Shown here: positions 290-31,808 of the stretch, piece after piece | How the letters are laid out: every line of letters begins with the position of its first letter | Numbering within the stretch: the first letter of the stretch is position 1 | DNA from: Candidatus Bathyarchaeia archaeon | Lineage (GTDB): Archaea; Thermoproteota; Bathyarchaeia; Bathyarchaeales; Bathycorpusculaceae | Direction of reading: 5' to 3' | Assembly (NCBI GenBank): GCA_049515895.1 | Contig: JBEKTQ010000007.1 | Span: 1-64,000, forward strand | DNA length: 64,000 bases | Translations under genes and position numbers: made by a program | Notes under the pieces: generated by a model | Database searches by the model: none | What the model was told of the DNA's origin: nothing | The model's input: only the letters and a program-made list of their open reading frames with translations

Positions 290-1591
290 TTAGGTTTGGT
301 TGGGGGCGAATTCCCAGGCGATGTTGCCTTTCCAGATTTCGCCTTGTTTTGTTATCCTGACTTCTTTGTCGTCGATTTCGATTAATCCTTTTTCTTTGAG
401 TTTTTGAAGCTGTTTCGGGAAGACTTTTTCAGGTGTAGTTCCGAATTTCTGCATGAACTCTGCTTTGCTGACTGGCAGCCGTAAGTACAGCCTTGTCATC
501 GTTCGCCTCATCATGTCTTCAGTTGTGGATTCTGAAAGTCTGCTTATAGGAAGTTTTCCCGCTTTTACTGTTGCCATATAGTCGTTTATGTTTTCAATGT
601 TAGAATAAGAAAACCGTTGGAGGTATCCCATGAAGCAACCCGCGCCAGTTGTCAATATGCCTCCCCATGGCCAACCGTTTAAGCAGTTTTCTCGCATGTG
701 CCATTCTACTCTACTGAATCTGTCGTGCCCTACTGCTTTGTAGCCAGCAGCGGTTAGCATGTTGTAGGCAGTCAGGTACATTTGCTTCTCGTACTCTGCA
801 TCTCCCGTAGGTGGCGAAATGCCTGTTTTAATCATTTTTTCAAGCACAGTACCAGGGTCTACATGCAATGAATAGGTATCAATTTCCACGTCGAGTTCAA
901 CCGTCTTCTTCAGCGTATCTATCCAGCTTTCCATGGTTTGACCTGGAAGATTGTACATTAAATCTACACACACGCACAAGCCCAGTTTACGCGCGTGTCG
1001 AATTGCTTTTTCAACATCCGCTGCAGTATCAGGCAAGCAAAGCATCATACGTAATTTGTTATCGAATGTCTGCGCCCCCATATCCATTTGGTACACGCCG
1101 TATTTGGCGAGTTTATCAATTTTCGGAAGCGCAAGGGTCTTCGAGGACCCTGTTACCTTGATGAAGTATTCCTTGTTGATGTTGAAGTTTGCCTTGCAAA
1201 AATCGATGAGGTCAATCATCTGTTCAGCTGCTAAAACGCTGGGTGTTCCGCCGCCCAGAACTATTTCGTCAAAAACGCTGGTTTTCACGTACTCGGTTTT
1301 GGCGTACATTTCGAGTTCTTTCTTGAGCAGTTCAAGGTATGGCTCTATCTTCACTTTGCTTGTTGCGGTGGTGGGGAAATAGCAGAATGCGCATCTTGAG
1401 TCGCAAACAGAGATCCACGGCTGCAATTCCATCAACCTGCCAGATTTATTTTCGGTGTCCAGAAACTCCATGAACGCGTGATACGTTTCGGGTCTAATGT
1501 CTGGGTAATCCCTGTAGGTGTAGGGAGGCCAGTTTTCCCTTGAATCGTAAACTTCCGACTTGCTTGTTTTGAGAGCGGAGGCTTTGGTCAT
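290..1591 (-). CDS. HemN/HemW-like (class C type) radical SAM protein
   Basis: CDSRCAFC motif, GGGTPS, DLMYNLPGQT, HemN-like C-terminal domain. Confidence 0.85.
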   Translation of the reverse strand: MTKASALKTSKSEVYDSRENWPPYTYRDYPDIRPETYHAFMEFLDTENKSGRLMELQPWISVCDSRCAFCYFPTTATSKVKIEPYLELLKKELEMYAKTEYVKTSVFDEIVLGGGTPSVLAAEQMIDLIDFCKANFNINKEYFIKVTGSSKTLALPKIDKLAKYGVYQMDMGAQTFDNKLRMMLCLPDTAADVEKAIRHARKLGLCVCVDLMYNLPGQTMESWIDTLKKTVELDVEIDTYSLHVDPGTVLEKMIKTGISPPTGDAEYEKQMYLTAYNMLTAAGYKAVGHDRFSRVEWHMRENCLNGWPWGGILTTGAGCFMGYLQRFSYSNIENINDYMATVKAGKLPISRLSESTTEDMMRRTMTRLYLRLPVSKAEFMQKFGTTPEKVFPKQLQKLKEKGLIEIDDKEVRITKQGEIWKGNIAWEFAPNQT

Positions 1592-1720
1592 CCAAATAAT
1601 CCTCGATTGTAACTTTAAGACGGCTCGATAACATAATAAAGATTACGTTAGAAGCGCCTATACGCCTTCGTGATCCATAAAAGCACCTTCAAATTGGCTA
1701 AAGCTGTTGGTAGCTTGAAT

Positions 1721-3118
1721 TTAGCTTTTGGCTCTCATGAGTATGTAGTTCGCCGCGGTACGAGCCATTATCTTGCTGTAGACGCTGCCTCGCAGGTATC
1801 CTTTCACTGCTTGACGCATAAAGTACTTTACTGAATAGAATTGGTTGTAAAAGTCTTGTCTTGCCTTGGTTACTTCTTCCGCTGGAAGATTGGGGTCTTC
1901 AAAAATGGGGTTCATTGTGTTGTATCGATTCCAGTCGTCCGTCATCTTCCAGCCTTGTTTCTGCACCAAAGCACGCAGTTCCGTTCCCGGATAGGGTGTC
2001 GGGATGTTTAGCCATACGCTGTCGGGCTCCACTTTTCGGACAAAATCCAAGCTTTCCTGCAGCGTCTCCTTTGTTTCGCCGGGATAACCCAAGATTATGG
2101 ATACGGTAACGAATATGCCTGCTTCCTTCGCCCATTTGATGGCGTTTTCGCACTGCTCGGTTGTAACCTTCTTCTTCAAGGAGTCTCGGATTCTTTGGCA
2201 TCCAGACTCAACGCCGAAGCAAATTTCCTCGCAGCCAGCCTTATGCATCTTAGCTAAAAGCTCCTTGGTCGTCACATCCGCTCTGGTTCCACAGCCCCAC
2301 TTAATATTAATTTTTCTAGCAATCATTCCATCGCAGATGTCAATGGCTCTTTTCTTGTCGAAAGTTAACGTGTCATCTTGGAACTGTATTCCTTCCGCTC
2401 CGTACTCGTTTTTGAGCCATTCAATCTCGTCAAGCACATTGTTTGGGCTTCTTGCTCGGAATGTTCGACCGAACATTTCAGAGGCAACGCAGAAGGAACA
2501 TTGGAACGGGCATCCCCTGCTTGAAATTACTGGTAGGATCCTTTTTCCGTTGATCCTGTATTTTTCAATTGGAATCTGCTTGTATGCTGGGCGGGGCAGA
2601 GCATCTAGGTTTTGGATGAAGGGTCGGGTTGGTGTCTGGACAATATGGTTGTCTTTTCGGAAAGTTATGCCTTTAATCTCGCTGATGTTTTGTAGCTCAG
2701 GTTGCTTTGCGAGTTCCAAAAGTGTTTCTTCTCCTTCGCCCCTTACAATAATGTCGACTGCTTTTTCTTGGGAGAGGATTTCCGTGTCTTGAAAAGTCGC
2801 GTGTGGTCCGCCCATGACGATTTTGGCGTCGGGACAGGCTTCCTTCGCGGCGTAGGCAGTCTTAAGGGCTGACTCAAACGTCTGCGTCATGGTGCCCACT
2901 CCCACTATGGTCGGCTGGAAAACGCTTAAGTCTGCCTTTAGCTTCTCGTGGTCTATCCCATAAATGGGGCAATCGAAAACTTTGATTTCAAAACTGTTTT
3001 GTTCGAGCACAGCCGCCATGTAGGCTAAGCCAAGCGGTGGGAAAAGCGGGTGGTCGCCGGCTCCTTCAAGGAGCGGTGTGTTAACGAGGGCTATTTTTGT
3101 TTTAGTTGTCTTCATCAC
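1721..3118 (-). CDS. B12-binding radical SAM protein (class B methyltransferase-like), copy 1
   Basis: PPLGLAY, GGPHAT, VRGEGE, SRGCPFQCSFC, FGVESG, TPYPGT. Confidence 0.9.
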   Translation of the reverse strand: MMKTTKTKIALVNTPLLEGAGDHPLFPPLGLAYMAAVLEQNSFEIKVFDCPIYGIDHEKLKADLSVFQPTIVGVGTMTQTFESALKTAYAAKEACPDAKIVMGGPHATFQDTEILSQEKAVDIIVRGEGEETLLELAKQPELQNISEIKGITFRKDNHIVQTPTRPFIQNLDALPRPAYKQIPIEKYRINGKRILPVISSRGCPFQCSFCVASEMFGRTFRARSPNNVLDEIEWLKNEYGAEGIQFQDDTLTFDKKRAIDICDGMIARKINIKWGCGTRADVTTKELLAKMHKAGCEEICFGVESGCQRIRDSLKKKVTTEQCENAIKWAKEAGIFVTVSIILGYPGETKETLQESLDFVRKVEPDSVWLNIPTPYPGTELRALVQKQGWKMTDDWNRYNTMNPIFEDPNLPAEEVTKARQDFYNQFYSVKYFMRQAVKGYLRGSVYSKIMARTAANYILMRAKS

Positions 3119-3270
3119 AATACACGTTTGGCGTAAATAGAATGATTTTCATTCTTACTTGGATATGGTTCTTAAGCATAATATTTTCAAGATTTTAACC
3201 TTTTGCTAAAGGGTCGCGTTGTATTCAAGCGGTAGGATGAGCACTCTTTACCGTTACGTTTTTATACGGT

Positions 3271-4041
3271 GTGGGCGACGCTTCTTCGGGGAAGATTTTG
3301 AGAGTTGCCTCAATGTGGACTGGAGGTAAAGACAGTTACCTTGCATGTCAAGGGGCTATCTCAGAAGGAAATGATGTTACTTCACTCATAAACTTCGTTT
3401 TCAAGGAACCTCAAAAGCCCAAACCAAAAAGGATCAAAAGTCTCGCTAGTTCTGTCCTTATGAAACTGTCACGAATGAAGCCCTACAAGGATGTCCCACA
3501 TGAGGTCAATCCTGAAATCATCGCGATGCAAGCAAAGGCAATGGATTTGCCAATTGTCCAGCCCGGAATCTCCATGACAGATTTCGTCGACAAGTTCAAA
3601 GCCACCATCAGCAACCTGAATCCTCCCGTCGAAGGAATTGCCTGGGGCGCTGAAGAAGATCAGGCAGCCGTCCATATGTCAATGCTTACCCCGATCTGCG
3701 AAGAGCTTAAGGTCAAAATGATTTTCCCGCTAAAGGGAAAAGGCGAAGACCAAAACCTCGCAGACTTCACACAAAAAGGCTACGAAGCAACCATCATCGT
3801 TGTCGACACCGACTTCTTAGGCGAAGAATGGCTGGGTCGCAAAGTCGACGCAGACTTCTTGCAGGCTATCCGCAGCAAAAGCAAAGAAACAGGCACCGCC
3901 ATAAGCAACATCGAGTTCCACACGCTTGTGAATAATGCACCGCTGTTTAAGAAACGGCTGAAAATCGTTCAAAGCAGCAAAGTGAAAAGAAAAGGATTCG
4001 CGGTTCTCAACATAAAAAAGGCGGAACTAGTCGAAAAATAG
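3271..4041 (+). CDS. DUF71/diphthine-ammonia-ligase-like PP-loop ATPase, divergent paralog
   Basis: WTGGKDS PP-loop, EWLGR, EFHTLV..APLFKK; start may be TTG at 3298. Confidence 0.8.
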   Translation: MGDASSGKILRVASMWTGGKDSYLACQGAISEGNDVTSLINFVFKEPQKPKPKRIKSLASSVLMKLSRMKPYKDVPHEVNPEIIAMQAKAMDLPIVQPGISMTDFVDKFKATISNLNPPVEGIAWGAEEDQAAVHMSMLTPICEELKVKMIFPLKGKGEDQNLADFTQKGYEATIIVVDTDFLGEEWLGRKVDADFLQAIRSKSKETGTAISNIEFHTLVNNAPLFKKRLKIVQSSKVKRKGFAVLNIKKAELVEK

Positions 4042-4101: not shown

Positions 4102-6336
4102 TCATTTCTTTTTTCGAAATCTGATTATAACCATCGCTGCCACACCCAAAATTGCAGCCAAAATCAGCGCAATGATAACTACGGGCGGCGGTTCTGACGT
4201 GGCATGCGCCGCGGTTGATGATGAGCCGAATGCGTAAAGCAAGTTGTTGTATGAGCCCACGTAAACAGCGTTGTCGGCTATGGCTGGTGAAGAAACAACT
4301 TTTTCTCCTGTGGCATAACTCCAAATTCTTGCGCCTGTTCCCGCGTCAAGCGCATAAAGGTTGCCGTCACATGAGCCCACGTAAACAATCCCGTTTGACA
4401 CGGCAGGTGAAGACGCAACTTCGCCGCCAGTCGCGTAACTCCAAACGATTTTGCCGCTGGATGCATCCAGAGCATAAACCCGGCCATCCCCTGAGCCTTC
4501 GTAAACCTTGCCGTTTGCAAATGCAGGCGACGACGTTAACCCAGCGCCTGTGGCAAATTTCCAAGTAAGCTTTCCAGTCAAAGCATTTAAGGCGTAGATG
4601 TTGTGGTCGTATGAACCTACGTAAACCATTCCGTTAGATACTGTTGGAGAGGAAACCACGTATCCGCCCGTTGTGTAATTCCAGAGTGGTGTTCCGTCGG
4701 ATGCGTTTAGACAGTAAATACTGTTGTCGTTTGAGCCGACATAGACTCTGCCCTTGTAGATTGCGGGAGACGACAAGGTTATCTGACCGCCGGTAGCGAA
4801 TTGCCATTTGAAGGAGCCGTCGGCGGCGTTTAAAGCGTAGATTTTGTTGTCTTCCGAACCCACGTACACCACACCGTTAGCCACTGAGGGGGAAGAAACC
4901 ACGGGTGCGCTAGTTTTGTAGCTCCACCCCAAGGCGCCAGTCGCCGCGTTCAAGGCGTAAACGTAGTCATCGTAGGAGCCAACGTAAACCACACTGTCCG
5001 CCACTGCAGGCGAAGAAAACATGATCATGTCACCCGTCTTATAGCTCCAGACGACGTTGTTATGCATCTCCACGTTATAGCCAATCATCCCCGTTGAAGC
5101 ATTCAGCGCGTATACAGTTCCATCATGGGAACCCATATAGACCAAGCCACCCGCCACGGCTGGGGACGAGTCTATTTCGCCGCCAGTTGCAAAACTCCAA
5201 ATACGGCTGCCGCCAGAAGTGCTTAAAGCGTAGAGTTTGCCATCCCATGAACCAACGTAAACCATGCCTTGCGTAGCGGCTGGTCGAGAAATTACCATGT
5301 CTCCAGTCGTGTAGTTCCACCTCAATGCTCCTGTTGAAGCGCTCAACGCGTAGACCTTACTGTCTTCGGAACCGACGTAAACTGTGCCACCAGCCACTAA
5401 GGGGGAAGAAGCCACGGCAGCGCTCGTTGCGAATTCCCAAACAACTTTCCCGCTTGCAGCGTTTAGGGCGTAAACTTTGCCGTCTGTTGACCCAACGTAG
5501 GCTAGACCGTCGCTGACATATGGCGAAGAATAGATGGATCCTCCTGTCGAGTAGTTCCAAACTGATTTGCCACTGTTGGCGTCCAGCGCGTAGAGGTCGC
5601 CGTCGTCTGAACCCGCATACACGATGCCATCGTTTAGGGCTGGCGAAGAAACCACTTGATTACCTGTCTTGAAACTCCATATGAAGGCGCCGCTGGTGGC
5701 GTTAATCGCGTAGATTTTGTCGTCTTCTGAACCGATGTAGACTTTTCCGTTGCCTACCGTTGGCGAGGACATCATGATCTTGTAACCAGTTGAAAAGTTC
5801 CAAATGTAAGCGCCCGTCGCCGCATTCAAAGCGTAGACGTTGTGATCTTCCGAGCCAAAATACACGACGCCGTTGACGACGGCGGGGTCACAGTCAACAT
5901 AGTACCCTGTTGAATAATTCCACAGTTTTTCGCCGTTTGCTGCGTTGAAAGCGTAAAGGTTGTGATCTTCTGAACCCACGTAGACGACGCCGTTCACCAC
6001 TGCTGGACGGGAAATCACGATCCCGCCAGTAAGCGAACTCCACAAGATTGCGCCGTCTGAAGCATTGAAAGCGTAGATTTCATGATCAAACGAGCCGGCG
6101 TAAACGACGCCGCCGACAACGGTGGGTGAATCAACTTGACCGCCCGTGTTAAACTTCCACAAGGTCGCATTCGTCATCGGCGCCACCGAGCTGGAGTAGC
6201 CTGAATGAGTGATGTCGCCGTGAAACATAGGCCACGCACTAAGGCTCACCTGTCCCGCGGGGCAAAAGCTTACTAAAATGACTGAAGCCAAAAACAGCAC
6301 TGTCAGAACAATTGAAATTGCGGCGGCTGCTTTCAT
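4102..6336 (-). CDS. Secreted, C-terminally anchored PQQ-like (BamB-type) beta-propeller repeat protein
   Basis: Signal peptide, WPMFHGD, about 16 repeats of ~40 aa SSPAV.GVVYVGS.D..YALNA.TG..W, C-terminal TM plus RKKK. Confidence 0.9.
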   Translation of the reverse strand: MKAAAAISIVLTVLFLASVILVSFCPAGQVSLSAWPMFHGDITHSGYSSSVAPMTNATLWKFNTGGQVDSPTVVGGVVYAGSFDHEIYAFNASDGAILWSSLTGGIVISRPAVVNGVVYVGSEDHNLYAFNAANGEKLWNYSTGYYVDCDPAVVNGVVYFGSEDHNVYALNAATGAYIWNFSTGYKIMMSSPTVGNGKVYIGSEDDKIYAINATSGAFIWSFKTGNQVVSSPALNDGIVYAGSDDGDLYALDANSGKSVWNYSTGGSIYSSPYVSDGLAYVGSTDGKVYALNAASGKVVWEFATSAAVASSPLVAGGTVYVGSEDSKVYALSASTGALRWNYTTGDMVISRPAATQGMVYVGSWDGKLYALSTSGGSRIWSFATGGEIDSSPAVAGGLVYMGSHDGTVYALNASTGMIGYNVEMHNNVVWSYKTGDMIMFSSPAVADSVVYVGSYDDYVYALNAATGALGWSYKTSAPVVSSPSVANGVVYVGSEDNKIYALNAADGSFKWQFATGGQITLSSPAIYKGRVYVGSNDNSIYCLNASDGTPLWNYTTGGYVVSSPTVSNGMVYVGSYDHNIYALNALTGKLTWKFATGAGLTSSPAFANGKVYEGSGDGRVYALDASSGKIVWSYATGGEVASSPAVSNGIVYVGSCDGNLYALDAGTGARIWSYATGEKVVSSPAIADNAVYVGSYNNLLYAFGSSSTAAHATSEPPPVVIIALILAAILGVAAMVIIRFRKKK

Positions 6337-6407
6337 TTTTACTCTTATTAATCTTCGGTTCTTAACGACTTAAAGGCATTTTCTTTTGAATTCCAAAAAA
6401 ACTGAGT

Positions 6408-7505
6408 CTATTTTTTGCGCAGGCTTTCAGGTATGTATACGCACGCTGGGTCCGCTTCGTAGATGTCGCCTGTGTAGGCGTATGCCCGGTTTCGGCAGCC
6501 TCCGCAGATTTCTCGGTACTCGCAGATTCCGCATTTGCCCTTAATCAGGTTTCTGTTTTGGAAGCTTTGGTAATACTTTGACTCTTGGACTTCCTTCCAC
6601 GCTGTGGTAAGGCTTTTCTGCCTAACGTTACCCAGCATCATAGGTTCTGAAGGCTGAAGGTCCGTGTAGAAGCACGGGATTAAGTCGCCGTTTTCTGTCA
6701 CGCTTAAGTAGCCGCCGAAAGCGAAGTAGGTGCATTTTCCATGGAATTTGCGTTCGTACCACTCGTCGAAGTTCGGGATGTTCCGCTGTTTGACTACCCG
6801 TGCAAAATGGGGGCAGTGAACATGGATTTCGAATTTGCCCTCGTACTTTTCCGTTAAATCCCAAATGTGATTAAGAGTCCACTCATATTCCTCGGGTGTG
6901 GGAGTTAACTCCATTGTTGATTTCGCTCTTCCACTTGGAACCAGATGGTTATACCAGACAAAGTTGGCGTGGTATTTGTCAGCTAACTCTGCGACGTGGT
7001 CTAGGTGTTTAAAGTTGATTGTGGTGATTGCGCAGGCTAACCCGTTGAGGATTTTGCCGGCTGACAGCTTCTCAATGGCTGCCAATGCCTTTTTGTATGA
7101 GCCTTTGCCGCGAAGTTGATCGTTGATTTCTTCAGGTCCATCTATGCTTACGGATGTCCAAACTTGGTTTTTGACTAGGTTGTCGTAGATTTTTCCGTCC
7201 ACGAAACATCCGTTGGTTAGCAGGCAAACGTTGAGTCCGAGGCTTTTTGCGTAGGTGACAATTTCAAAGATGTCTTCTCGCATAAGGGGTTCGCCGCCTT
7301 TCAAGCCGAACCATCGCACACCGAACTTGTGTACTTCGTCAACCAGATGTAGCGCCTCTTTCGTAGTCATTTCTCTTGGTGCACGTTTGCCACTAGCGTC
7401 AACGTTGCAGTATCTGCAGCGGGCATTGCAGGCGCCTGTTGCCCTCCAAGAAGTCATAAGTAAAGGACCCTTACTCGTCAACCCAAAACCCACTCTCTTC
7501 GCCAA
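6408..7505 (-). CDS. Radical SAM/SPASM domain protein (NirJ/AhbC/PqqE-like)
   Basis: CNARCRYC, GGEPL, SPASM cysteines KC...PC...KCGICEYREICGGCR...DPAC. Confidence 0.88.
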   Translation of the reverse strand: MAKRVGFGLTSKGPLLMTSWRATGACNARCRYCNVDASGKRAPREMTTKEALHLVDEVHKFGVRWFGLKGGEPLMREDIFEIVTYAKSLGLNVCLLTNGCFVDGKIYDNLVKNQVWTSVSIDGPEEINDQLRGKGSYKKALAAIEKLSAGKILNGLACAITTINFKHLDHVAELADKYHANFVWYNHLVPSGRAKSTMELTPTPEEYEWTLNHIWDLTEKYEGKFEIHVHCPHFARVVKQRNIPNFDEWYERKFHGKCTYFAFGGYLSVTENGDLIPCFYTDLQPSEPMMLGNVRQKSLTTAWKEVQESKYYQSFQNRNLIKGKCGICEYREICGGCRNRAYAYTGDIYEADPACVYIPESLRKK

Positions 7506-7704
7506 TTCATTATTTAGGTAAACGTTTCTTTTCAGCCTAAAAAAGATTGTGCGGTGACTCTCTTGTTTTCATTTTTCGCCGAAGTAGCATTTTCCTCCTT
7601 TTCTTACCTGGCAAATTGAATTTAGAATGTTTCCGTAAGGTTTATAGTGAAACCAACAATCAATAAATGACCGGTGGCAAGGCGTTAACCTCTTAACCAG
7701 AGAT

Positions 7705-25326: not shown

Positions 25327-26043
25327 GTGAAGGTTGTTGTTCACTGGAGCGGTGGCAAAGAATGTTGCTTAGCTTATCACAAAGTCATCAAACAGGGTCA
25401 TCAGGTTTCGTATCTTCTCACTTTTGAATATATGAAACCCTACGTTTTCCACAGTTTCCCGATAATGGAGCTTCAGTCAAAAACTTTAGGCACCCCTCTG
25501 AAACGGGTTAGTATCAAAAAGCCATACGAGGACATTTTGGAGGCACTTACGAAGCTTCAGAAAGAAGAGGGTATAGAGGGCATCGTTACCGGCGACATAG
25601 TTGGAGCAGGATGCGCCATCGTACACTCAAGCTACTACGAGAGCATGGCTAAGCAATTGGGGTTGGCTTTCATGATGCCCCTCGAAAACCCTTCAGGAGA
25701 CACCTACGATGTTTTGAAAGAAGTCGTTGGGACCGGCTTAAGACCCATGCTCAACTGCATCAACACAAACTTCTTCGAAGAAGACTGGCTGGGACGCATA
25801 CTTGACCCCGAGTCAGTTAAAGAGCTAAAGAAGCTTGCTGACGAAAAAGGGATAGATGTCTCCAGCGAAGACGGGCAAGGCTACCATAGCACCGTGGTGG
25901 ATGCGCCTCTTTTCAAAGAATCCATAGGCATTGGCAAGTTCAAAACGAAGAAGAAAAAAGAGAAATCGAAGAACTGGAAACGAAATTGGCTTTACATGGA
26001 CATCAAAGAGTGCTGCTTGAAGCCTAAGGCAAATCCCAAATGA
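25327..26043 (+). CDS. DUF71/Dph6-like PP-loop ATPase paralog
   Basis: Likely GTG start at 25327 after GAGGG; HWSGGKEC, VTGDI, WLGR, YHSTVVDAPLFK. Confidence 0.82.
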   Translation: MKVVVHWSGGKECCLAYHKVIKQGHQVSYLLTFEYMKPYVFHSFPIMELQSKTLGTPLKRVSIKKPYEDILEALTKLQKEEGIEGIVTGDIVGAGCAIVHSSYYESMAKQLGLAFMMPLENPSGDTYDVLKEVVGTGLRPMLNCINTNFFEEDWLGRILDPESVKELKKLADEKGIDVSSEDGQGYHSTVVDAPLFKESIGIGKFKTKKKKEKSKNWKRNWLYMDIKECCLKPKANPK

Positions 26044-26174
26044 GATTCCAGTTCGTTTTTTTGAGTCAAACTTTCGGCCTCTACTGGTAATTCGCGTGTC
26101 TGGCAGGAAATTGTGTGTTATTGCATAAAGTAAATGAAGCACAAGACATAAACTCTATTGCTTCAGGGAAGAAC

Positions 26175-27587
26175 ATGAAAACTCGCATAACTCTTGTAAA
26201 TCCGCCGTACCCTGTCGGTTCCCATCAACACCCGCCTTTCATGCCGCTAGGCCTCGGTTACTTAGGTGCTGTTTTATACAAGAGTCATTTTGATGTTAAC
26301 GTGATTGATTGCCAAGCTCAAAAATTCAGTTACCAACATTTCAAGGAAGAAATCGGCAAAGTTAAGCCTGACATAGTTGGAGTAACCTGCACCACACTTA
26401 CCTACAAGTCAGCGCTCAAAATTGTCCGGATAGCTAAGGAAGTTTGGCCGAACTGCATAACTGCCATGGGTGGTCCCCATGTGACATTTTGGGATGACAA
26501 GGCACTGCAGGAAGAACCGTCCTTGGACGTTGTGGTCAGAGGCGAAGGAGAAAACACGTTGCTGGAGCTTGCGCAAAGAATCGAAGACTCCAAGCCTTAC
26601 ATTGACTTGATAGGAACTACTTGCAGAAACGGTTCGGGCATGGTGAAAAACGCCGATAGGCCTTTCCTTGAAAACCTTGACAGTCTGCCTTTTCCCGCTC
26701 TTCACCTTTGGCAACACACGGAAAACCTGCGAAAGTACGGAACCATTCCCTACCCCGTGATGACCAGCCGAGGCTGCGTGTACTGGTGCAACTTCTGCAC
26801 GGCCGTGCGAATGTTCGGCAGAAGATACCGCATGCGAAGCCCAAAAAATGTTGTAAACGAACTCGAATTCCTGCACAAAAACTACTACGCTAACCAATTC
26901 ACATTTTACGACGACGCATTCACAGTGGACTTGGCGCGGACCGCTGAAATCTGCGATGAAATTCAGCAGCGAGGACTCAAAATTAAGTGGGACTGCGAAA
27001 CCCGCGTTGACATGGTAACCAAAGAGCTTCTTGTCAAGATGCGTGAGGCGGGATGCATAGCTGTCTGGTTCGGTGTTGAATCAGGATCAAAAAAGCTTTT
27101 GACAAGCATGGGCAAAGGCTTCTCACTCACTCAGACAAGACGCGCTTTTAAGTGGGCGAAAGAAGCTGGGTTGATGACTGTTGCAGGCGTCATCTTGGGT
27201 TTTCCAGGTGAAACCAAGGAAAGTGCATGGGAAACAATCCGCTTCGTCAAAGAGCTTAACCCCAACGATGTTGGTTTCTACATCGCGACGCCTTATCCGG
27301 GAACACCAATGTACGAGGAAGTCAAAGCCAACGGTTCGCTTAAGATAACAGACTTTGACAGATACGACACCGCGACTCCGACCTTTGAAATCCCGAACAT
27401 GAGCATGCAGGAGCTAACCGAAATCCGCGAGCAAGCATTCCAAAGCTTCTACCTTAGCCCAGCATACTTCGTCAGCGCACTTGGCATGTTCAGGAAAGGA
27501 AAAATGTGGGGTCTAGGCGCAACCCGACTGATCCTGGCCCATGCAAGACGAGCAGTCAGGGCAAAAGCAAACAGCCTCCTAAAATAG
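26175..27587 (+). CDS. B12-binding radical SAM protein, copy 6
   Basis: Likely ATG at 26175; NPPYP..HPPFMPLGLGY, SRGCVYWCNFC, FGVESG. Confidence 0.9.
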   Translation: MKTRITLVNPPYPVGSHQHPPFMPLGLGYLGAVLYKSHFDVNVIDCQAQKFSYQHFKEEIGKVKPDIVGVTCTTLTYKSALKIVRIAKEVWPNCITAMGGPHVTFWDDKALQEEPSLDVVVRGEGENTLLELAQRIEDSKPYIDLIGTTCRNGSGMVKNADRPFLENLDSLPFPALHLWQHTENLRKYGTIPYPVMTSRGCVYWCNFCTAVRMFGRRYRMRSPKNVVNELEFLHKNYYANQFTFYDDAFTVDLARTAEICDEIQQRGLKIKWDCETRVDMVTKELLVKMREAGCIAVWFGVESGSKKLLTSMGKGFSLTQTRRAFKWAKEAGLMTVAGVILGFPGETKESAWETIRFVKELNPNDVGFYIATPYPGTPMYEEVKANGSLKITDFDRYDTATPTFEIPNMSMQELTEIREQAFQSFYLSPAYFVSALGMFRKGKMWGLGATRLILAHARRAVRAKANSLLK

Positions 27588-27614
27588 GAACCTAAGCCAC
27601 CGGAGAAACCAAAA

Positions 27615-28982
27615 ATGATTCTGCTAATGACCACGGCGCCGCCCGAGAAATCGCCTTGGGGCGTGGCTGGAAGACTTCCCCCGTTGGGCTTAGCATATGT
27701 CGCCGCGTCTTTGGAAAAGAGCGGCTTCCAAGTTGAAATCTACGATAATTACCTGCTTGAAAGACCCATCGAAGAAGTTAAATCCGAAATAAGAAAACGA
27801 TCGCCAGAAATCGTAGGCATAACCTGCAATTCCTTGTCTTACGGGCGTTGTATCGAGATGGCAAAAGCAGTCAAAGAGGCATCTCCTTCCTGCCGCGTCG
27901 TTGTTGGCGGTCCGCATGCCTCCTATATGCCTCAAACCCTTCTAGAGCATCAAGAGGTAGATTACTTAGTTATCGGCGAAGGAGAACAAGCGGTGGTTCT
28001 GCTTGCCTCCAGCATTATAAAAGGCGAAAAAGCCCAAGAGGCAGCGCATATTCCTGGGGTTGCAACCAAAATAGGCAGCGAAATAGCCAAAACTGCACCT
28101 CAATTCATCAGCAACTTAGATGAAGTTCCCTTCCCAGCTCGACATTTGTTGCCTATGCGCATGTACACCCGTGAATTGAGCTATTTGACGGTTAAACCCG
28201 TTGACACAATGAGCATACACCGCGGCTGCCCGTACAGATGCGCTTACTGCGAAACCAGAGAGCTATGGGGTTCAGCTTGCCGATCTTTCTCGCCGCAACG
28301 GGTCATAAACGAAATCCAACATATGATTGAAACCTACGGCACGAAGGGAATCTATTTTGTCGGCGACAACTTTACCATAAACAAAAAACGTACATCCGAG
28401 CTATGCCGCCTAATCAAAAGCGACAAAATTGACTTGAAATGGACCTGCGAAACCCGAGCCGACCTCATCAACAAGGAATTACTATCCGAAATGAAATCCG
28501 CAGGCTGCCAAACGATGTTCTTCGGCGTCGAGTCAGGTTCACCCAGAATCCAGCAGAAGCTCAACAAAGGCATTGATTTGCAGGATGTTGTGAAAGCCTT
28601 TGAGCTATGCAGGCAGACGGGTATACAGACCATGACTTCTTTCATGCTAGGGATTCCAGGCGAAACATTCGACGACATGAAGGAAACCTTCAACTTTTCT
28701 AAAAAACTGAAGGCGGACTGGTGCCAATTCAACATTTACATCGCTTGCCCAGGCAGCCAACTGTACGATGAGGTGATAAGCAAAGGACTCTACGACCAGC
28801 TATACGACTATTTAGCAAGGGTCAAAACCAACGAGTTCGACCACGACATGCTGGAGAAGATTCAGAGGGATTTTCAGCGCAAATGCCAGAAATCAGCCGC
28901 GTCCAAGTTTATGCGAGTGGTGAAGCAGGAGGGCTTAGGCAGCGCAGTAAAAAGGGGAGCGTCGATGGTTTTCCGCCGCTAA
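27615..28982 (+). CDS. B12-binding radical SAM protein, copy 7 (LMTTAPPE subtype)
   Basis: LMTTAPPE..RLPPLGL, GGPHAS, HRGCPYRCAYC, FGVESG. Confidence 0.9.
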   Translation: MILLMTTAPPEKSPWGVAGRLPPLGLAYVAASLEKSGFQVEIYDNYLLERPIEEVKSEIRKRSPEIVGITCNSLSYGRCIEMAKAVKEASPSCRVVVGGPHASYMPQTLLEHQEVDYLVIGEGEQAVVLLASSIIKGEKAQEAAHIPGVATKIGSEIAKTAPQFISNLDEVPFPARHLLPMRMYTRELSYLTVKPVDTMSIHRGCPYRCAYCETRELWGSACRSFSPQRVINEIQHMIETYGTKGIYFVGDNFTINKKRTSELCRLIKSDKIDLKWTCETRADLINKELLSEMKSAGCQTMFFGVESGSPRIQQKLNKGIDLQDVVKAFELCRQTGIQTMTSFMLGIPGETFDDMKETFNFSKKLKADWCQFNIYIACPGSQLYDEVISKGLYDQLYDYLARVKTNEFDHDMLEKIQRDFQRKCQKSAASKFMRVVKQEGLGSAVKRGASMVFRR

Positions 28983-29176
28983 TGATTTCTCCCTATTTTC
29001 TTGTCTTGATTTTTGGTTCGGGGCTGGGTTCTGTTTCAGAAAAGCTTGCCCAACCTGAGCTTTTTTTCCTGTTTTAGCATTTACGGGTAAATATGGGAAC
29101 TTTACGGGAAAACTAGACAACTATATTAACGCCGAGACTTAACTTAACTAAAATATTACAAATTTAGGGGAGAAAA

Positions 29177-30613
29177 ATGAAAACTCACATTACCCTTGTG
29201 AACCCGCCGTACCCCGGTCAATCTTTCCCGCATCCTCCCTTCCCTCCGCTGGGTTTAGGCTACGTCGCAGCAGTTTTAGAGCAGAACAAATTCAACATCG
29301 ACGTAGTCGACTGCTTAACCTATAACTTAAGCTACGACGGCTTCAGAGAAGAAATCAGCAAACGCAAACCCGACATCGTGGGTGTCACATGCAACACACT
29401 GACATACAAGTCTGCGCTTCAAATCCTTAAAGTCGCCAAAGAAGCCCTTCCGAACTGCATAACCGTCATCGGAGGACACCATGTCACCTTCGAGGATGAA
29501 CAAGCCTTCAAAGACCTTCCAACGTTGGACGCCGTGATCAGGAACGAAGGCGAATACACGATGCTTGAGCTTGCCCAGCGAGTTGAGGCAGGCAAAGACT
29601 GGCATGATGTTATCGGAACAACCGTTAGAAAAGCCGAGGGTTCAGTCGTGAGAAACCCAAAGCGCGCCCACATCGAAAACCTCGATGAACTTCCATTCCC
29701 AGCTCGCCACTTGTGGCCATTAGAAGCCACTTCAAAGTATGGCAGGATAATGTTTGACATCATTGCAAGCCGCGGCTGCTCGTATTGGTGTGACTTTTGC
29801 ATCGAAGTCCGAATGCACGGGCAAAAATTCCGCAAACGAAGCGTCCAAAACGTCTGCGACGAACTTGAAGAATGCAAGAAAACTTACGGCGCAACATGGT
29901 TCTCCTTTGTTGACGCAGCCTTTACAGTAGACCAACAATTCACCGCTGACCTATGCGACGAAATCATCAGGCGAAACATTAACATTAACTGGGTTGCTGG
30001 AACCCGCGTTGACATGGTCACCAAAGAACTGCTGCAAAAAATGGCTCAAGCAGGCTGCAAATCCATGTGGTACGGCGTCGAATCCGGCGCACAGAACGTT
30101 CTCAACGAGATGCGAAAAGGCATCACCTTGGAGCAAACCATCAAAGCCTTCCAGTGGACTGTAGAGGCAGGGATGAAACCCGACCCCAACGTTGTCCTCG
30201 GCTTTCCAGGCGAAACCAAAGAATCTGCATGGGCAACCATAAAGCTCTGTCAGAAGATTGCTCCCACCTACATGGCTTCCTACACAATAGCGACTCCATA
30301 CCCAGGTACACCACTCTACTACTTGGTCAAAGAGAAGGGTTGGCTAAAAGACACTAACTTTGACCACTACGACACCGCTACGCCAACATTCGAAACCCCA
30401 ACGATGACCATCCAAGAACTTAGGAAGCTTCGTGCAAAAGCGTGGTCAAGCTTCTACGAACGACCAAGCTACATAAGGGCTATGTTCAAAAAAAGCTTTA
30501 TCTACGGGTTAGCAGCGATGAAGGCAGCCGTCACATTTAGGTTCATTGACCTACGAATGGCATTGCAACCTAACAAGATACCGCCGAAGCCACCGTCAAA
30601 AAGCCACTTCTAA
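29177..30613 (+). CDS. B12-binding radical SAM protein, copy 8
   Basis: NPPYP..HPPFPPLGLGY, SRGCSYWCDFC, YGVESG, TPYPGT. Confidence 0.9.
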   Translation: MKTHITLVNPPYPGQSFPHPPFPPLGLGYVAAVLEQNKFNIDVVDCLTYNLSYDGFREEISKRKPDIVGVTCNTLTYKSALQILKVAKEALPNCITVIGGHHVTFEDEQAFKDLPTLDAVIRNEGEYTMLELAQRVEAGKDWHDVIGTTVRKAEGSVVRNPKRAHIENLDELPFPARHLWPLEATSKYGRIMFDIIASRGCSYWCDFCIEVRMHGQKFRKRSVQNVCDELEECKKTYGATWFSFVDAAFTVDQQFTADLCDEIIRRNININWVAGTRVDMVTKELLQKMAQAGCKSMWYGVESGAQNVLNEMRKGITLEQTIKAFQWTVEAGMKPDPNVVLGFPGETKESAWATIKLCQKIAPTYMASYTIATPYPGTPLYYLVKEKGWLKDTNFDHYDTATPTFETPTMTIQELRKLRAKAWSSFYERPSYIRAMFKKSFIYGLAAMKAAVTFRFIDLRMALQPNKIPPKPPSKSHF

Positions 30614-30676
30614 AAGCCAACTTTTTCTTTTCTTTGTTTTATTCTTGAAAATCCCTTTTGCAGTGGCAGTTTTCTT

Positions 30677-30979
30677 CTAAATGGTCAGGTTGATTGCCTT
30701 CAAGATGTCGCGGTAGGCCCTAAGCGGGGTTTCTTTGTCATGCACATTTTTAATCAGCATGCGTCCCCCGTCGAAAAGGCTAACGTCCAGCTTCATGTAG
30801 TCAAACATCAGAACCATCGGAGACTTCACGCGGATTTTGCAGCTCTTCTTGATTTTGTCGCAAGCGGTGTTCATGTTGAATTTTAGGGGTTGCACTGGAG
30901 TAATATCCGCAGTTGTCCCTCCGCAGAGCCAAACAACATGGAGGTTGCCGACAACTTCCTTTTCAACCATCCCTCTCAA
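30677..30979 (-). CDS. Small protein resembling the C-terminal extension domain of some ThiF/MoeB-family proteins
   Basis: WLCGG.TADI.P ... VSLFDGGRMLIKNV pattern recalls LCGR..VQI.P ... F.DGR.L. Confidence 0.55.
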   Translation of the reverse strand: MRGMVEKEVVGNLHVVWLCGGTTADITPVQPLKFNMNTACDKIKKSCKIRVKSPMVLMFDYMKLDVSLFDGGRMLIKNVHDKETPLRAYRDILKAINLTI

Positions 30980-31067
30980 ACTCCAGCCTTGCTATTTTAG
31001 GAGCAGGTTTACTTAATCAATATTGCCATAAGACGACTGAAAACCGTAGGTTCTTAAAAAGGGCTGC

Positions 31068-31808
31068 CTAGGTTTTGGGTTTGACGGTGGCTTCTTCAAC
31101 GTCCATATAAAGGAAGTTTCCCTCACGGAACGGGGACCCGCCGAAGTCGACGATTTTGCTTTTCTTCGTAAACTTGGTTATTTCAACGCGTTGCTTGAAC
31201 AGCGGCGCATCAAGCGCCGTAGAATGGTATTCTCCGGGTTCGCCTGAAACATCAATTCCTTTTCCTGCTGGACCCACCAGGGACTGCATGTCTTCAATGC
31301 ATTTCCTGTCAATTTGCCTTCCAAGCCATTGCTCTGTGAAATATCTCTGGTCAAGGCAGCTTAGGATAGCTTTTACCCCGGTTGATTGCTCCATTTCCAT
31401 AATGCGTTTCCGGTGACGATTGCCCGGGATAAGGTTCAGCGGGCGATCCCAAAGAGGCATAATCATTTCGTAACCCAGTTTTCTGCATGCGTCCTTCCAG
31501 ACGCGGCGGTGGTGAACGTTGTCGATGTCACCCGTGACGATGGCTTTGGCGCCTTCCTCTTTATGCAAGCGCTCCAGAGTTCCCATAATGTCGTCATAGC
31601 GGTTATCCGTGATTTTGACAAATTGGTGGGGCATGCCCAATGCTTTAGCTTGTTGTTCGATGACTTTGAAACTGTGGAAAACGTAAGGTTCCATGTAAAT
31701 GTAGGTGACTAGGCAAGCTACCTCGTGACCCTGCTCGACCACTTTGTGCAGCGCTGTGCAGCAGTCTTTTCCGCCGCTCCAGTGAATAACAACCTTCATT
31801 TCAAACAC
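31068..31808 (-). CDS. DUF71/Dph6-like PP-loop ATPase paralog
   Basis: HWSGGKDC, VTGDID..HH, MPLW, WLGR, GEPGEYHST.LDAPLFK. Confidence 0.85.
   Translation of the reverse strand: MFEMKVVIHWSGGKDCCTALHKVVEQGHEVACLVTYIYMEPYVFHSFKVIEQQAKALGMPHQFVKITDNRYDDIMGTLERLHKEEGAKAIVTGDIDNVHHRRVWKDACRKLGYEMIMPLWDRPLNLIPGNRHRKRIMEMEQSTGVKAILSCLDQRYFTEQWLGRQIDRKCIEDMQSLVGPAGKGIDVSGEPGEYHSTALDAPLFKQRVEITKFTKKSKIVDFGGSPFREGNFLYMDVEEATVKPKT

What the first reader, a model, noticed from the sequence alone, without database searches (positions are those of the whole stretch)
290..31808. Island of eight B12-dependent radical SAM paralogs interleaved with DUF71 ATPases: candidate undescribed multi-step tailoring system
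Seen: eight intact cobalamin-binding radical SAM genes (1721, 10457, 14382, 17060, 23744, 26175, 27615, 29177), all with CxxxCxxC. Within 32 kb they sit with a HemN-like and a SPASM radical SAM, three DUF71 paralogs, a class I methyltransferase, an amidohydrolase and cbiB. A DUF71 gene is divergently paired with a B12-rSAM gene twice (3118/3271 and 25141/25327). Known: class B radical SAM enzymes methylate unactivated carbons or phosphorus. Members include the cobamide lower-ligand enzymes BzaD/BzaE, and B12-binding rSAMs also include the GDGT ring synthases GrsA/B. DUF71 proteins are ATP-dependent amidating enzymes. Inference: this is one pathway that repeatedly C-methylates and amidates a shared scaffold. 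Plausible substrates are cobamides, tetraether lipids (e.g. backbone-methylated butanetriol types) or surface glycans/proteins. I know of no described pathway with this composition.
Basis: partly seen in the sequence, partly recalled or inferred. Interest (0 to 1): 0.85.

Follow-up and report, generated by a model that had tools for sequence, protein, structure and literature searches.

The report
Radical SAM and cobamide gene super-locus
A peat archaeon that cannot make vitamin B12 keeps most of its B12-dependent radical enzymes in one conserved gene neighbourhood together with B12-salvage genes and membrane-lipid genes, which makes these enzymes good candidates for the unknown makers of modified archaeal lipids.

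Summary
Eight intact B12-binding radical SAM (rSAM) genes with CxxxCxxC lie at the stated coordinates, and they are 8 of the genome's 13 such genes. They are not recent tandem copies. They form eight old orthogroups, each with orthologues in other genera, and four also have orthologues in a second family. The neighbourhood is conserved, with shuffled order, across two Bathyarchaeia families.

The "one pathway that methylates and amidates" reading is only partly supported:
- The DUF71 genes carry the signature and context of the published "DUF71-B12" cobamide-salvage subgroup.
- DUF71 is accessory: it was not seen in the two family f7 super-loci examined, and orthologues occur in only 5 of 15 genus members.
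- The genome lacks tetrapyrrole and corrin synthesis, so it must salvage corrinoids.
- The locus always carries a second, divergent cbiB copy. It also holds second cobD, cobS and cobY copies, a Gms-like rSAM, glycosyltransferases and, in this window, a second Tes and a UbiA gene.

Best reading (0.4): a tetraether-lipid tailoring cluster of the published Gms/"Gmm2" kind, joined to cobamide supply genes. Main rival (0.2): assembly of a dedicated cobamide variant.

Paralogue expansion, Gmm2 multiplicity and DUF71-B12 are already in print. The DUF71–rSAM and cbiB2–rSAM operons were not found in the papers searched.

The parts
290..1591 (-). HemN-like (class C) radical SAM. Best model is ChuW/HutW, far below its cut-off.
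   Evidence: 179.6 bits vs cut-off 400. Orthologues of 82-92% identity in same-genus islands and 64% in family f7. A paralogue sits next to CbiZ1 on C21.
1721..3118 (-). B12a, a class B rSAM. In other families its relatives sit directly downstream of the Gms-like gene.
   Evidence: B12a-like gene next to the Gms-like gene in 5 of 20 loci.
3271..4041 (+). Divergent DUF71 paralogue (TGGKDS loop, NIEFH motif). Not conserved in the syntenic islands.
4102..10374 (.). Two PQQ-like beta-propeller surface proteins (4102-6336-, 7705-10374+) flanking a SPASM rSAM (6408-7505-, AhbD/NirJ-like, below cut-offs).
   Evidence: Signal peptide and C-terminal anchor seen. The module is kept in families f1 and f7.
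10457..11926 (-). B12b, a class B rSAM.
12317..13897 (+). Amidohydro_3 amidohydrolase. No signal peptide was evident at its N-terminus. Conserved between the B12b and B12c genes.
13902..16878 (-). Operon cbiB2 (15883-16878), B12c (14382-15845) and a 90-aa protein with two hydrophobic stretches (13902-14174).
   Evidence: Gaps of 37 nt between cbiB2 and B12c, and 207 nt before the 90-aa ORF. cbiB is adjacent to B12c in 20 of 30 loci, from 6 genera. The small ORF is conserved. cbiB2 is a distinct paralogue in 5 of 5 genomes tested.
17060..19588 (-). B12d (17060-18475) and a tandem Lrp/AsnC regulator (18551-19588).
20041..23743 (+). Large anchored surface protein (20041-22797) and a class I SAM methyltransferase (22892-23743).
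   Evidence: The methyltransferase is kept next to the rSAM array in f1 and f7.
23744..25141 (-). B12e, a class B rSAM, divergent from DUF71_25327.
   Evidence: The divergent arrangement occurs in 20 of 37 loci.
25327..30613 (+). Operon DUF71_25327, B12f (26115-27587), B12g (27615-28982) and B12h (29177-30613).
   Evidence: Gaps of 71 and 27 nt. DUF71 lies directly upstream of B12f on the same strand in 36 of 37 loci. By my reading of the rows, B12h is present in only 9 of 46 loci.
30677..31808 (-). Operon DUF71_31068 (31068-31808) and a 100-aa TBP-fold protein (30677-30979), convergent on the B12f operon.
   Evidence: The four-gene core occurs in 36 of 46 loci. Model pLDDT 92. TBP-like fold with weak E-values. 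47% identical to the C-terminal domain of a ThiF-family protein.
32493..39567 (.). Block cobD2 (32493-33539-), membrane protein, GT2, GT2, GT4, DUF362 (37125-38099-) and a Gms-like rSAM/SPASM (38083-39567-).
   Evidence: The block order is kept in families f1 and f7.
41957..43401 (-). cobY2 and cobS2, divergent second copies. In relatives they are co-directional with the Gms-like gene.
   Evidence: Upstream of the Gms-like gene in 17 of 30 loci.
43416..46738 (+). Epimerase, UbiA-family prenyltransferase (44378-45265) and a second Tes paralogue (45275-46738).
   Evidence: 456.6 bits vs cut-off 450. The canonical Tes is on C1.
49562..56136 (.). Fourth DUF71 (EGGEYH motif), cobT, cobS1 and cobY1 on the + strand. 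AP_endonuc_2 (CbiR-like candidate), cbiQ, cbiO and cbiO on the - strand.

Best explanation
The finding is the core of a conserved super-locus. In this genome it probably runs from the end of contig C17 to about 53 kb of the window. It combines three gene sets.

1. Eight (probably nine) anciently separated orthogroups of cobalamin-binding class B rSAM enzymes. With them are a HemN-like rSAM, two SPASM rSAMs, a class I methyltransferase and an amidohydrolase.
2. Cobamide salvage and loop-assembly genes. These include a second divergent cbiB, cobD, cobS and cobY and, in this family only, four DUF71 paralogues of the 'DUF71-B12' type.
3. Membrane-lipid and envelope genes: an rSAM with the published Gms architecture, a second Tes, a UbiA prenyltransferase, three glycosyltransferases and anchored surface proteins.

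Inferred mechanism:
- The class B rSAMs are tailoring enzymes, each with its own site, that use methylcobamide plus a 5'-deoxyadenosyl radical on unactivated carbons.
- Their most likely substrate is the tetraether membrane lipid (the published Gms/Gmm, 'Gmm2' kind).
- The organism cannot make any tetrapyrrole. The adjacent cobamide genes therefore salvage and rebuild the corrinoid cofactor these enzymes consume.
- The DUF71 PP-loop enzymes belong to this supply side. They do not amidate the rSAM substrate.

Shown: gene content, conservation, orthogroup structure and the loss of corrin synthesis. Inferred: lipid as the substrate, methylation as the chemistry, and the supply role of DUF71.
For: Gene content and domains.

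Old orthogroups:
- A tree of 101 B12-rSAMs puts the eight window genes in eight separate groups, each with other-genus orthologues.
- Groups a, c, d and e also include family f7 orthologues.
- Pairwise identity among the eight is 30-60%.

Conservation:
- The island is collinear in G003, G016, G014 and G001.
- 45 of 46 related loci hold a B12-rSAM within 10 kb, and 41 of 46 hold a cob gene.
- The f7 genomes G115 and G183 hold the same set, shuffled.

Salvager status: no CbiC, CbiD, CobQ-level match, ThiC or HemB at 100% completeness. Two CbiZ genes and a btuFCD set are present.

DUF71 on the supply side:
- The true Dph6 candidate (EGGEIE, 224 bits) is on C1. The other four copies all lie in the window and end their motif in F/Y-H (against the motif).
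- In distant families, DUF71 relatives sit beside cobS-cobY, cbiO/cbiQ or cobD-cbiB with no B12-rSAM nearby.

Lipid link:
- The 38083-39567 gene has an AhbD-like core plus a Cys-rich extension of about 135 aa. This is the architecture described for Gms.
- B12c and the Gms-like gene lie 5.5-40 kb apart in 14 of 15 same-contig genomes.
- A B12a-like rSAM lies directly downstream of the Gms-like gene in 5 of 20 loci from other families.
- Tes2 and UbiA lie in the window.
- PMC11214058 (section 7 and passages read) states that gms and gmm cluster and that most Bathyarchaeota with gmm2 have several copies.
Against: - No sequence of Gms, Gmm, GrsA or GrsB was available, so membership of these families is untested. 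The lipid reading rests on architecture, neighbourhood and a paper's description.
- All eight rSAMs fall far below every curated NCBIfam cut-off, including lipid-related HpnR and TIGR04072.
- The tightest, best-conserved links are to cobamide genes, not lipid genes: cbiB2-B12c and DUF71-B12f-B12g.
- A supply role does not explain why a second, divergent cbiB is kept in the cluster in 5 of 5 genomes that also have a canonical copy.
- 15 of 20 Gms-like loci in other families have no adjacent B12-rSAM.
- For 19 of 34 genomes, B12c and the Gms-like gene lie on different contigs, so linkage is unknown.
- The PQQ-propeller proteins, the HemN-like rSAM, the amidohydrolase and the TBP-fold protein have no role in this account.
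- No expression data were obtained.
Confidence: 0.4

Rival explanations
1. Dedicated cobamide line. The cluster's second CobD, CbiB, CobY and CobS set, together with DUF71 enzymes and some of the rSAMs, converts salvaged corrinoids into a structurally distinct cobamide. The change could be in the linker, the side chains or the lower ligand. That cobamide would then serve the remaining class B rSAMs.
For: - cbiB2 is co-transcribed with B12c: 37-nt gap, and adjacent in 20 of 30 loci from 6 genera.
- All 5 genomes tested keep a canonical cbiB elsewhere plus the cluster copy.
- The duplicated cobD, cobS and cobY copies are 34-36% identical to each other, and the two cbiB copies 43%.
- DUF71-B12f-B12g is an almost invariant operon, 36 of 37 loci.
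- rSAMs recur beside salvage genes at three loci in this genome: a HemN-like gene next to CbiZ1, a B12-rSAM near CbiZ2, and the window itself.
- BzaD and BzaE set a precedent for class B rSAMs acting in cobamide synthesis (passages).
Against: - Scores to the BzaD model are 101-147 bits against a cut-off of 450.
- No ThiC/BzaAB-family gene is present.
- cobT is single-copy.
- cobD2 lies in a strictly conserved block with three glycosyltransferases and the Gms-like gene, which have no place in cobamide synthesis.
- B12c orthologues are confined to two families: 34 of 60 f1 and f7 genomes and 0 of 240 others. Nothing shows that a special cobamide exists.
Confidence: 0.2
2. One reading: a single multi-step pathway in which the rSAMs C-methylate, and the DUF71 enzymes ATP-dependently amidate, one shared scaffold of unknown nature.
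For: - The DUF71-B12f-B12g and DUF71-TBP-like operons form a convergent five-gene core. The four-gene version is kept in 36 of 46 loci while the flanks rearrange.
- In three other genera of the family, DUF71_25327 orthologues remain next to B12-rSAMs.
- PP-loops are largely intact in the four window copies: SGGKDS, SGGKDC, SGGKEC and TGGKDS.
Against: - The rSAM array exists without DUF71 in the two f7 super-loci examined, and DUF71_25327 orthologues were not found in 10 of 15 genus genomes.
- The eight rSAMs lie in at least six transcription units on both strands, interleaved with surface proteins and a regulator.
- The ancestral context of these DUF71 genes is cobamide salvage.
Confidence: 0.1
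3. Protein or peptide maturation. The three classes of rSAM modify the co-located, anchored PQQ-like beta-propeller surface proteins or an unrecognised peptide.
For: - The module PQQ protein, SPASM rSAM, PQQ protein, B12a and HemN-like is kept in families f1 and f7.
- One of the two nearest solved structures is the protein glutamine C-methyltransferase QCMT/MgmA, 9ccb, E 3e-44.
- ApyD (a RiPP enzyme) is among the top models.
Against: - No conserved small ORF resembling a precursor was found. The only conserved intergenic ORF is a 90-aa protein with two hydrophobic stretches.
- Scores to RiPP models are far below cut-offs.
- The propeller proteins have signal peptides, whereas rSAMs are usually cytoplasmic (general knowledge, not tested here).
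Confidence: 0.1
4. Catabolic or extracellular-polymer role. The rSAMs and PQQ-domain proteins transform lignin- or humic-derived compounds, as proposed for Bathy-6 and Bathy-8 in PMC11697101.
For: - PMC11697101 (section 11 and passages read) reports 7-20 B12-rSAM genes and many secreted PQQ-domain proteins per MAG and suggests lignin metabolism.
- DNA holders of this stretch are peat and wetland metagenomes. 3 of 12 runs hold half or more of the sampled words, one of which may be the source sample.
- An MtrH-plus-corrinoid-protein pair lies near the ninth rSAM.
Against: - The proposal is only a suggestion in that paper.
- No catabolic enzymes, transporters for aromatics or CoA ligases are interleaved in the island.
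- Linkage to the Gms-like gene, glycosyltransferases and cob paralogues is unexplained.
Confidence: 0.1

Closest known systems
Gms/Gmm tetraether-lipid modification clusters (Garcia et al. 2024, PMC11214058; section 7 and passages read)
   Same: - An AhbD-like rSAM/SPASM with an N-terminal extension lies near B12-binding rSAM genes.
- Bathyarchaeota are reported to hold several 'Gmm2' copies, and peat Gms sequences cluster with Bathyarchaeota.
- Here the Gms-like gene lies 5.5-40 kb from B12c in 14 of 15 same-contig genomes. In 5 of 20 loci from other families it is directly followed by a B12a-like rSAM.
   Different: - Up to nine rSAM orthogroups instead of one methylase.
- Interleaved cbiB2, cobD2, cobS2, cobY2, DUF71, HemN-like and PQQ-protein genes are not mentioned in the text I read.
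- Membership in the Gmm or Gms families was not tested, because no reference sequence was available and the SI figures and datasets are closed.
DUF71-B12 subgroup of COG2102 (de Crecy-Lagard et al. 2012, PMC3541065; passages read)
   Same: - Extra DUF71 copies beside the true Dph6.
- They cluster with cbiB and other salvage genes.
- The final residue of the Dph6 motif is replaced by His.
- Several paralogues occur in a corrinoid auxotroph. The paper notes five in Dehalococcoides CBDB1.
   Different: - The motif is EGGEYH, EPGEYH, DGQGYH or NIEFH rather than ENGEF/YH.
- The genes are co-transcribed with class B rSAMs and a TBP-fold protein. 'Radical SAM' occurs 0 times in that paper.
- CbiZ is also present, in two copies.
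Bathy-6/Bathy-8 expansion of COG1032 B12-rSAMs and PQQ-domain proteins (PMC11697101; section 11 and passages read)
   Same: - 7-20 B12-rSAM genes per MAG and many secreted PQQ-domain proteins.
- Bathy-8 genomes are mostly salvage-only for B12.
   Different: - The text I read gives counts, not the clustered organisation, operons or cob paralogues.
- Its Fig. S7 and Table S4 could not be seen.
BzaD/BzaE (anaerobic 5,6-dimethylbenzimidazole synthesis)
   Same: Class B rSAMs encoded among cobamide genes, next to a class I methyltransferase.
   Different: - Scores of 101-147 bits against a cut-off of 450.
- No ThiC-family BzaA/B/F in the genome.
Solved class B relatives: AprD4 (6fd2) and QCMT/MgmA (9ccb)
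   Same: Best PDB sequence matches of the eight-protein profile, E 7e-45 and 3e-44.
   Different: Distant matches that cover only part of the profile. The substrates (an aminoglycoside and an MCR glutamine) have no counterpart in this context.

Membership tests
Class B (cobalamin-binding) radical SAM | N-terminal B12-binding domain plus a radical SAM core with CxxxCxxC | tested here: met
   8 of 8: PF02310 at 45-91 bits (cut-off 32.1), PF04055, and one CxxxCxxC each.
Class B (cobalamin-binding) radical SAM | Bound cobalamin and methyl transfer | not testable with these tools
   Needs biochemistry. The best PDB match, AprD4, is recalled (from no call here) as not using cobalamin.
Named class B families (BchE, HpnJ, HpnR, ApyD, PhpK/Sden_1168, MgmA, BzaD, TIGR04072) | Score at or above the curated NCBIfam cut-off | tested here: not met
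   Best scores are 196-267 bits against cut-offs of 481-750. This holds for all 8 proteins.
BzaD/BzaE pathway | A ThiC-family 5-hydroxybenzimidazole synthase in the same genome | tested here: not met
   PF01964 gave 0 matches in a 100% complete genome.
Gmm / Gmm2 (GMGT/GDGT methylase) | BLAST E <= 1e-65 to Tg-Gmm and placement in the Gmm clade, apart from MoeK5 | not testable with these tools
   No Gmm or MoeK5 sequence was obtainable. The criterion is taken from PMC11214058 section 7.
Gmm / Gmm2 (GMGT/GDGT methylase) | Clustering with gms | tested here: inconclusive
   A B12a-like gene is adjacent to the Gms-like gene in 5 of 20 loci from other families. B12c lies within 40 kb in 14 of 15 same-contig cases, and 19 of 34 genomes cannot be judged.
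Gms (GMGT synthase), for 38083-39567 | AhbD-like rSAM/SPASM core with an N-terminal extension of about 100 aa | tested here: met
   The AhbD model scores 307 bits over residues 135-484, below its cut-off of 500. The 135-aa extension is Cys-rich.
Gms (GMGT synthase), for 38083-39567 | Extension assigned to COG4001, and E <= 1e-80 to Tg-Gms | not testable with these tools
   No COG library and no Tg-Gms sequence were available.
DUF71-B12 subgroup | PF01902 member that is not the genome's Dph6 | tested here: met
   The four window copies score 92-140 bits on the Dph6 equivalog, cut-off 197.3. The C1 copy scores 224 bits on PF01902 and has EGGEIE.
DUF71-B12 subgroup | ENGEF/YH motif in place of EGGE/DxE | tested here: inconclusive
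   F/Y-H is present in 4 of 4, and the Asn in 0 of 4. The motifs are EGGEYH, EPGEYH, DGQGYH and NIEFH (motif).
DUF71-B12 subgroup | Physical clustering with B12 salvage genes | tested here: met
   Neighbours are cobT-cobS-cobY, cobD2 and cbiB2. Distant relatives sit beside cobS-cobY, cbiO/cbiQ or cobD-cbiB.
CbiB (adenosylcobinamide-phosphate synthase), for 15883-16878 | Score above the TIGR00380 / NF002281 cut-offs | tested here: met
   233.6 vs 165.9 and 275.1 vs 273. It is the more divergent of two copies.
Tes (tetraether synthase), for 45275-46738 | Score above the NF045702 cut-off | tested here: met
   456.6 vs 450 when read from 45275. The canonical copy on C1 scores 660.7.
CbiR, for 52713-53633 | AP endonuclease 2 superfamily member next to cobamide genes, inside the CbiR clade | tested here: inconclusive
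   PF01261 at 84 bits. It lies between cobY1 and cbiQ. The clade and metal residues were not tested.

The most novel reading that the evidence does not exclude
The cluster's private set of late cobamide-assembly paralogues (CobD2, CbiB2, CobY2, CobS2) works together with the DUF71 PP-loop enzymes and at least the cbiB2-linked and DUF71-linked rSAMs (B12c, B12f, B12g). Together they rebuild salvaged corrinoids into a chemically distinct cofactor, methylated or re-amidated, or carrying another linker. This cofactor is reserved for the class B rSAMs. If so, B12-dependent enzymes would tailor their own cofactor well beyond the BzaD/BzaE precedent, and DUF71-B12 would finally have a function.
Probability: 0.15. 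Interest if true: 0.85.

Novelty: new variant of a known kind. Interest (0 to 1): 0.6.

Why it matters
- **Lipid biomarkers.** Peat and sediment tetraethers that are methylated, bridged or built on butanetriol are widely used biomarkers, and most of the enzymes that make them are unknown (recalled background, not checked here). This locus offers a defined, conserved set of eight to nine orthogroups beside a Gms-like gene. They could be tested one by one in the published Thermococcus expression system.
- **Cobamide supply and use.** It is a clear case of a complete tetrapyrrole auxotroph that links cofactor salvage genes to cofactor-consuming enzymes.
- **DUF71-B12.** It gives two concrete operons, DUF71-B12f-B12g and cbiB2-B12c, in which the role of DUF71-B12 could be addressed. 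I found no later characterisation of that subgroup in the papers searched.

Tried and rejected
- **Rfam** at gathering thresholds gave 0 matches, so no cobalamin riboswitch.
- **ARAGORN** found 0 tRNAs.
- **RiPP precursor hunt.** I translated all intergenic stretches in six frames and compared them with six relatives. Only a 90-aa ORF with two hydrophobic stretches was conserved.
- **Heme or siroheme role** for the HemN-like, AhbD/NirJ-like and tandem-Lrp genes was rejected. There is no HemB, and scores are far below cut-offs.
- **BzaD/E role** was rejected.
- **ORF 32031-32489** has no counterpart in the relatives' islands and is probably not a gene.
- **The search for homologous proteins with B12e** returned 1654 proteins at E <= 1e-20 among 8000 candidates. 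The best 120 are all at least 77% identical, and their names are generic or automatic (radical SAM, YgiQ, BchE), so nothing was learned about function.
- **Protein atlas for B12c** listed only unnamed Bathyarchaeota-dominated clusters.
- **Foldseek on the 100-aa protein** gave no match at E <= 0.001. The TBP fold rests on probability 0.99-1.0 and query-normalised TM-scores of 0.53-0.58.
- **Sequencing runs.** No RNA holder was listed.
- **Literature.** 'Bathyarchaeia' + 'radical SAM' + 'B12-binding' returned 0 papers. 'DUF71' + 'radical SAM' returned 4, and by title and abstract start none concerns such an operon; only one was opened, for 'DUF71' and 'CbiZ' passages.
- **Not used.** No complex prediction was run, because no binding claim is made. 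The search of protein representatives was also not used.

Full report
**1. The observation**

ORF listing and Pfam scans confirm eight intact genes with a B12-binding domain (PF02310) followed by a radical SAM core (PF04055) at the coordinates given. Each has a single CxxxCxxC. The HemN-like rSAM, the SPASM rSAM, the class I methyltransferase, the Amidohydro_3 protein, cbiB and three DUF71 genes are also there. A fourth DUF71 gene lies at 49562-50248.

The genome holding the window has 3.18 Mb in 53 contigs and is 100% complete. It has 18 PF02310 matches. Thirteen of them are rSAM-sized, by a profile of the eight proteins and by blastp of all ORFs of 380 aa or more. Eight of those 13 lie within 32 kb, which chance cannot explain.

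Record titles of related loci name Candidatus Bathyarchaeota/Bathyarchaeia MAGs. DNA holders of the stretch are peat and wetland metagenomes.

**2. The paralogues are old**

- Pairwise identity among the eight is 30-60%.
- All eight fall far below the curated cut-offs of every named NCBIfam class B family. Best scores are 196-267 bits against cut-offs of 481-750.
- A FastTree of 101 B12-rSAMs from this genome and fetched relatives puts the eight in eight separate orthogroups, each with orthologues from other genera. Groups a, c, d and e also contain orthologues from a second family, f7. The superclades are {e,g}, {c}, {a,b} and {d,f,h}. This is a FastTree with local support only, and some long branches are flagged.
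- The array is therefore a maintained set of distinct enzymes, not a recent tandem amplification.

**3. Conservation of the neighbourhood**

- The eight-protein profile finds 6-19 copies in 18 of 18 same-genus genomes and 0-5 in 12 genomes of other families of the order.
- Four same-genus genomes (G003, G016, G014, G001) hold a collinear island with orthologues at 55-92% identity.
- Among the 46 loci found around orthologues of DUF71_31068, 45 hold a B12-rSAM within 10 kb and 41 hold a cob gene.
- 36 of the 46 hold the four-gene core DUF71_31068, B12g, B12f and DUF71_25327, and 35 have it contiguous. Six of the ten misses are loci cut short by contig ends. The flanks of this core differ between species.
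- DUF71_25327 lies directly upstream of B12f on the same strand in 36 of 37 cases.
- A second module is cbiB2-B12c, with a 37-nt gap. cbiB is adjacent to the B12c orthologue in 20 of 30 loci from six genera. A conserved 90-aa ORF with two hydrophobic stretches lies downstream.
- In family f7, the complete genome G115 and G183 hold the same gene set in shuffled order. It comprises a PQQ protein, a SPASM rSAM, a HemN-like rSAM, B12f/a/g/c/d, cbiB, the amidohydrolase, the methyltransferase, a large surface protein, the Gms-like rSAM, GT4-GT2-GT2, a membrane protein, cobD and, in G183, cobS-cobY. There is no DUF71.

**4. DUF71**

- The genome has five PF01902 genes. The C1 copy scores 224 bits and has SGGKDS and EGGEIE, the Dph6 signature (motif from PMC3541065).
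- The four other copies all lie in the window. They score below the Dph6 equivalog cut-off and end their motif in F/Y-H. This matches the published DUF71-B12 subgroup in part. That paper predicted a role in B12 salvage from clustering with btu genes and cbiB.
- Class-wide (301 genomes), orthologues of DUF71_25327 at 64% identity or more occur only in family f1. In the genus they occur in 5 of 15 genomes.
- In three other f1 genera they remain beside B12-rSAMs. In distant families, relatives of 34-42% identity sit beside cobS-cobY, cbiO/cbiQ or cobD-cbiB with no B12-rSAM.
- DUF71 is therefore an accessory, family-specific addition whose ancestry is cobamide salvage.
- Its operon partner at 30677-30979 is a 100-aa protein. 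The model has pLDDT 92 and a TBP-like fold, though Foldseek E-values are weak. It is 47% identical to the C-terminal domain of a ThiF-family protein elsewhere in the genome. Its role is unknown.

**5. Cobamide economy**

- No CbiC, CbiD, CobQ-level match, ThiC or HemB was found. Two CbiZ genes and a btuFCD set are present. The organism must therefore salvage corrinoids.
- It has two copies each of cbiB (43% identical), cobD (36%), cobS (34%) and cobY (35%), and one cobT.
- The more divergent cbiB, cobS and cobY copies, together with the window's cobD copy, lie inside the super-locus.
- All five genomes tested (two f1, three f7) keep a canonical cbiB elsewhere plus the cluster copy.
- The window also holds DUF71-cobT-cobS1-cobY1 and an AP_endonuc_2 gene that is a CbiR candidate.

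**6. Lipid link**

- The gene at 38083-39567 has an AhbD-like rSAM/SPASM core starting at about residue 135, behind a Cys-rich extension. PMC11214058 describes Gms as an AhbD homologue with an N-terminal extension of about 100 aa.
- The same paper states that gms clusters with gmm (a B12-binding rSAM), and that most Bathyarchaeota with gmm2 carry several copies.
- Homologues covering the extension occur in 147 of 301 class genomes.
- The pair with DUF362 is kept in 29 of 30 f1 loci. cobS2-cobY2 lie upstream in 17 of 30, and Tes2 is adjacent in one.
- B12c and the Gms-like gene share a contig in 15 of 34 genomes. In 14 of those they are 5.5-40 kb apart, and in one 83 kb apart.
- In 5 of 20 Gms-like loci from other families, a B12a-like rSAM follows on the same strand.
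- The window also holds a second Tes (456.6 bits against a cut-off of 450) next to a UbiA prenyltransferase.

**7. Interpretation**

It does not support DUF71-mediated amidation of the rSAM substrate.

I favour (0.4) a tetraether-lipid tailoring cluster of the Gms/Gmm2 kind, joined to cofactor-supply genes. The main rival (0.2) is that the private CobD2, CbiB2, CobY2 and CobS2 set, with DUF71 and some rSAMs, makes a dedicated cobamide. That rival better explains the tightest operons and the retained second cbiB. It does not explain the glycosyltransferase and Gms-like block.

Membership in Gmm, Gms or Grs could not be tested, because no reference sequences were obtainable. The supplements of both key papers were closed, and they may already list these proteins.

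**8. Novelty**

Already in print: the expansion of B12-rSAMs in Bathyarchaeia (PMC11697101), multiple Gmm2 copies and gms-gmm clustering (PMC11214058), and DUF71-B12 (PMC3541065).

Not found in the papers searched:
- the DUF71-B12f-B12g / DUF71-TBP-like core;
- the cbiB2-B12c operon;
- the conserved second set of loop-assembly paralogues inside the rSAM/Gms-like cluster;
- the cross-family super-locus as a unit.

Noticed in passing
window 1-289 and contig C17:45500-63630 of the same genome: C17:45.5-63.0 kb is collinear with the stretch of G003 that lies directly upstream of the G003 match to the window start. The island therefore most likely continues onto C17. That stretch holds CbiZ2, a ninth B12-rSAM, MtrH plus a small corrinoid protein, two proteins of about 770 aa with no family match, and a SPASM rSAM.
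   Followed up: partly
window 45275-46738 (+) and 44378-45265 (+): A second tetraether synthase (Tes) paralogue, just above the NCBIfam cut-off, sits next to a UbiA-family prenyltransferase. The canonical Tes (661 bits) is on C1. In G197 this Tes2 lies directly beside the Gms-like gene.
   Followed up: partly
window 52713-53633 (-): An AP_endonuc_2 / xylose-isomerase-like TIM barrel gene lies between cobT-cobS-cobY and cbiQ-cbiO-cbiO. It is a candidate for the cobamide-remodelling phosphodiesterase CbiR. Clade membership and metal ligands were not tested.
   Followed up: partly
window 30677-30979 (-) and genome C4:21273-22319: The 100-aa TBP-fold protein of the DUF71 operon is a free-standing copy (47% identity) of the C-terminal domain of a 348-aa ThiF-family E1-like protein.
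   Followed up: partly
window 39959-41802 (+): Two ORFs rich in Pro-Thr repeats lie in a stretch with extreme GC skew (-0.58 in the 40001-42000 bin). The first ends in a Gln/Leu/Arg low-complexity tail that looks like an out-of-frame reading of the repeat. This may be one surface-protein gene with a frameshift or an assembly slip. It separates cobY2-cobS2 from the Gms-like gene, which are contiguous in relatives.
   Followed up: no
genome C21:106911-109324 (loci L111): A paralogue of the HemN-like rSAM (42% identical) lies directly downstream of CbiZ1. btuFCD, DUF2284 and an unusual GATase_3-plus-CbiA protein lie nearby. The canonical cbiB1-cobD1 pair is 23 kb away.
   Followed up: no
loci L068:12561-13685 and L079:5276-6409 (family f35): CobY (MobA-like nucleotidyltransferase) is fused to an ECF-transporter S component. 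It sits beside cobS, a DUF71-B12-type gene, an Asn_synthase-like PP-loop protein, a DUF4443 regulator and a short SPASM rSAM.
   Followed up: no
loci L023 and L038: Two contigs with the Bathyarchaeia core module (89% and 88% identity to DUF71_31068) are filed under bacterial MAG names (Acidoferrum, Limnocylindrales). This is probably mis-binning.
   Followed up: no
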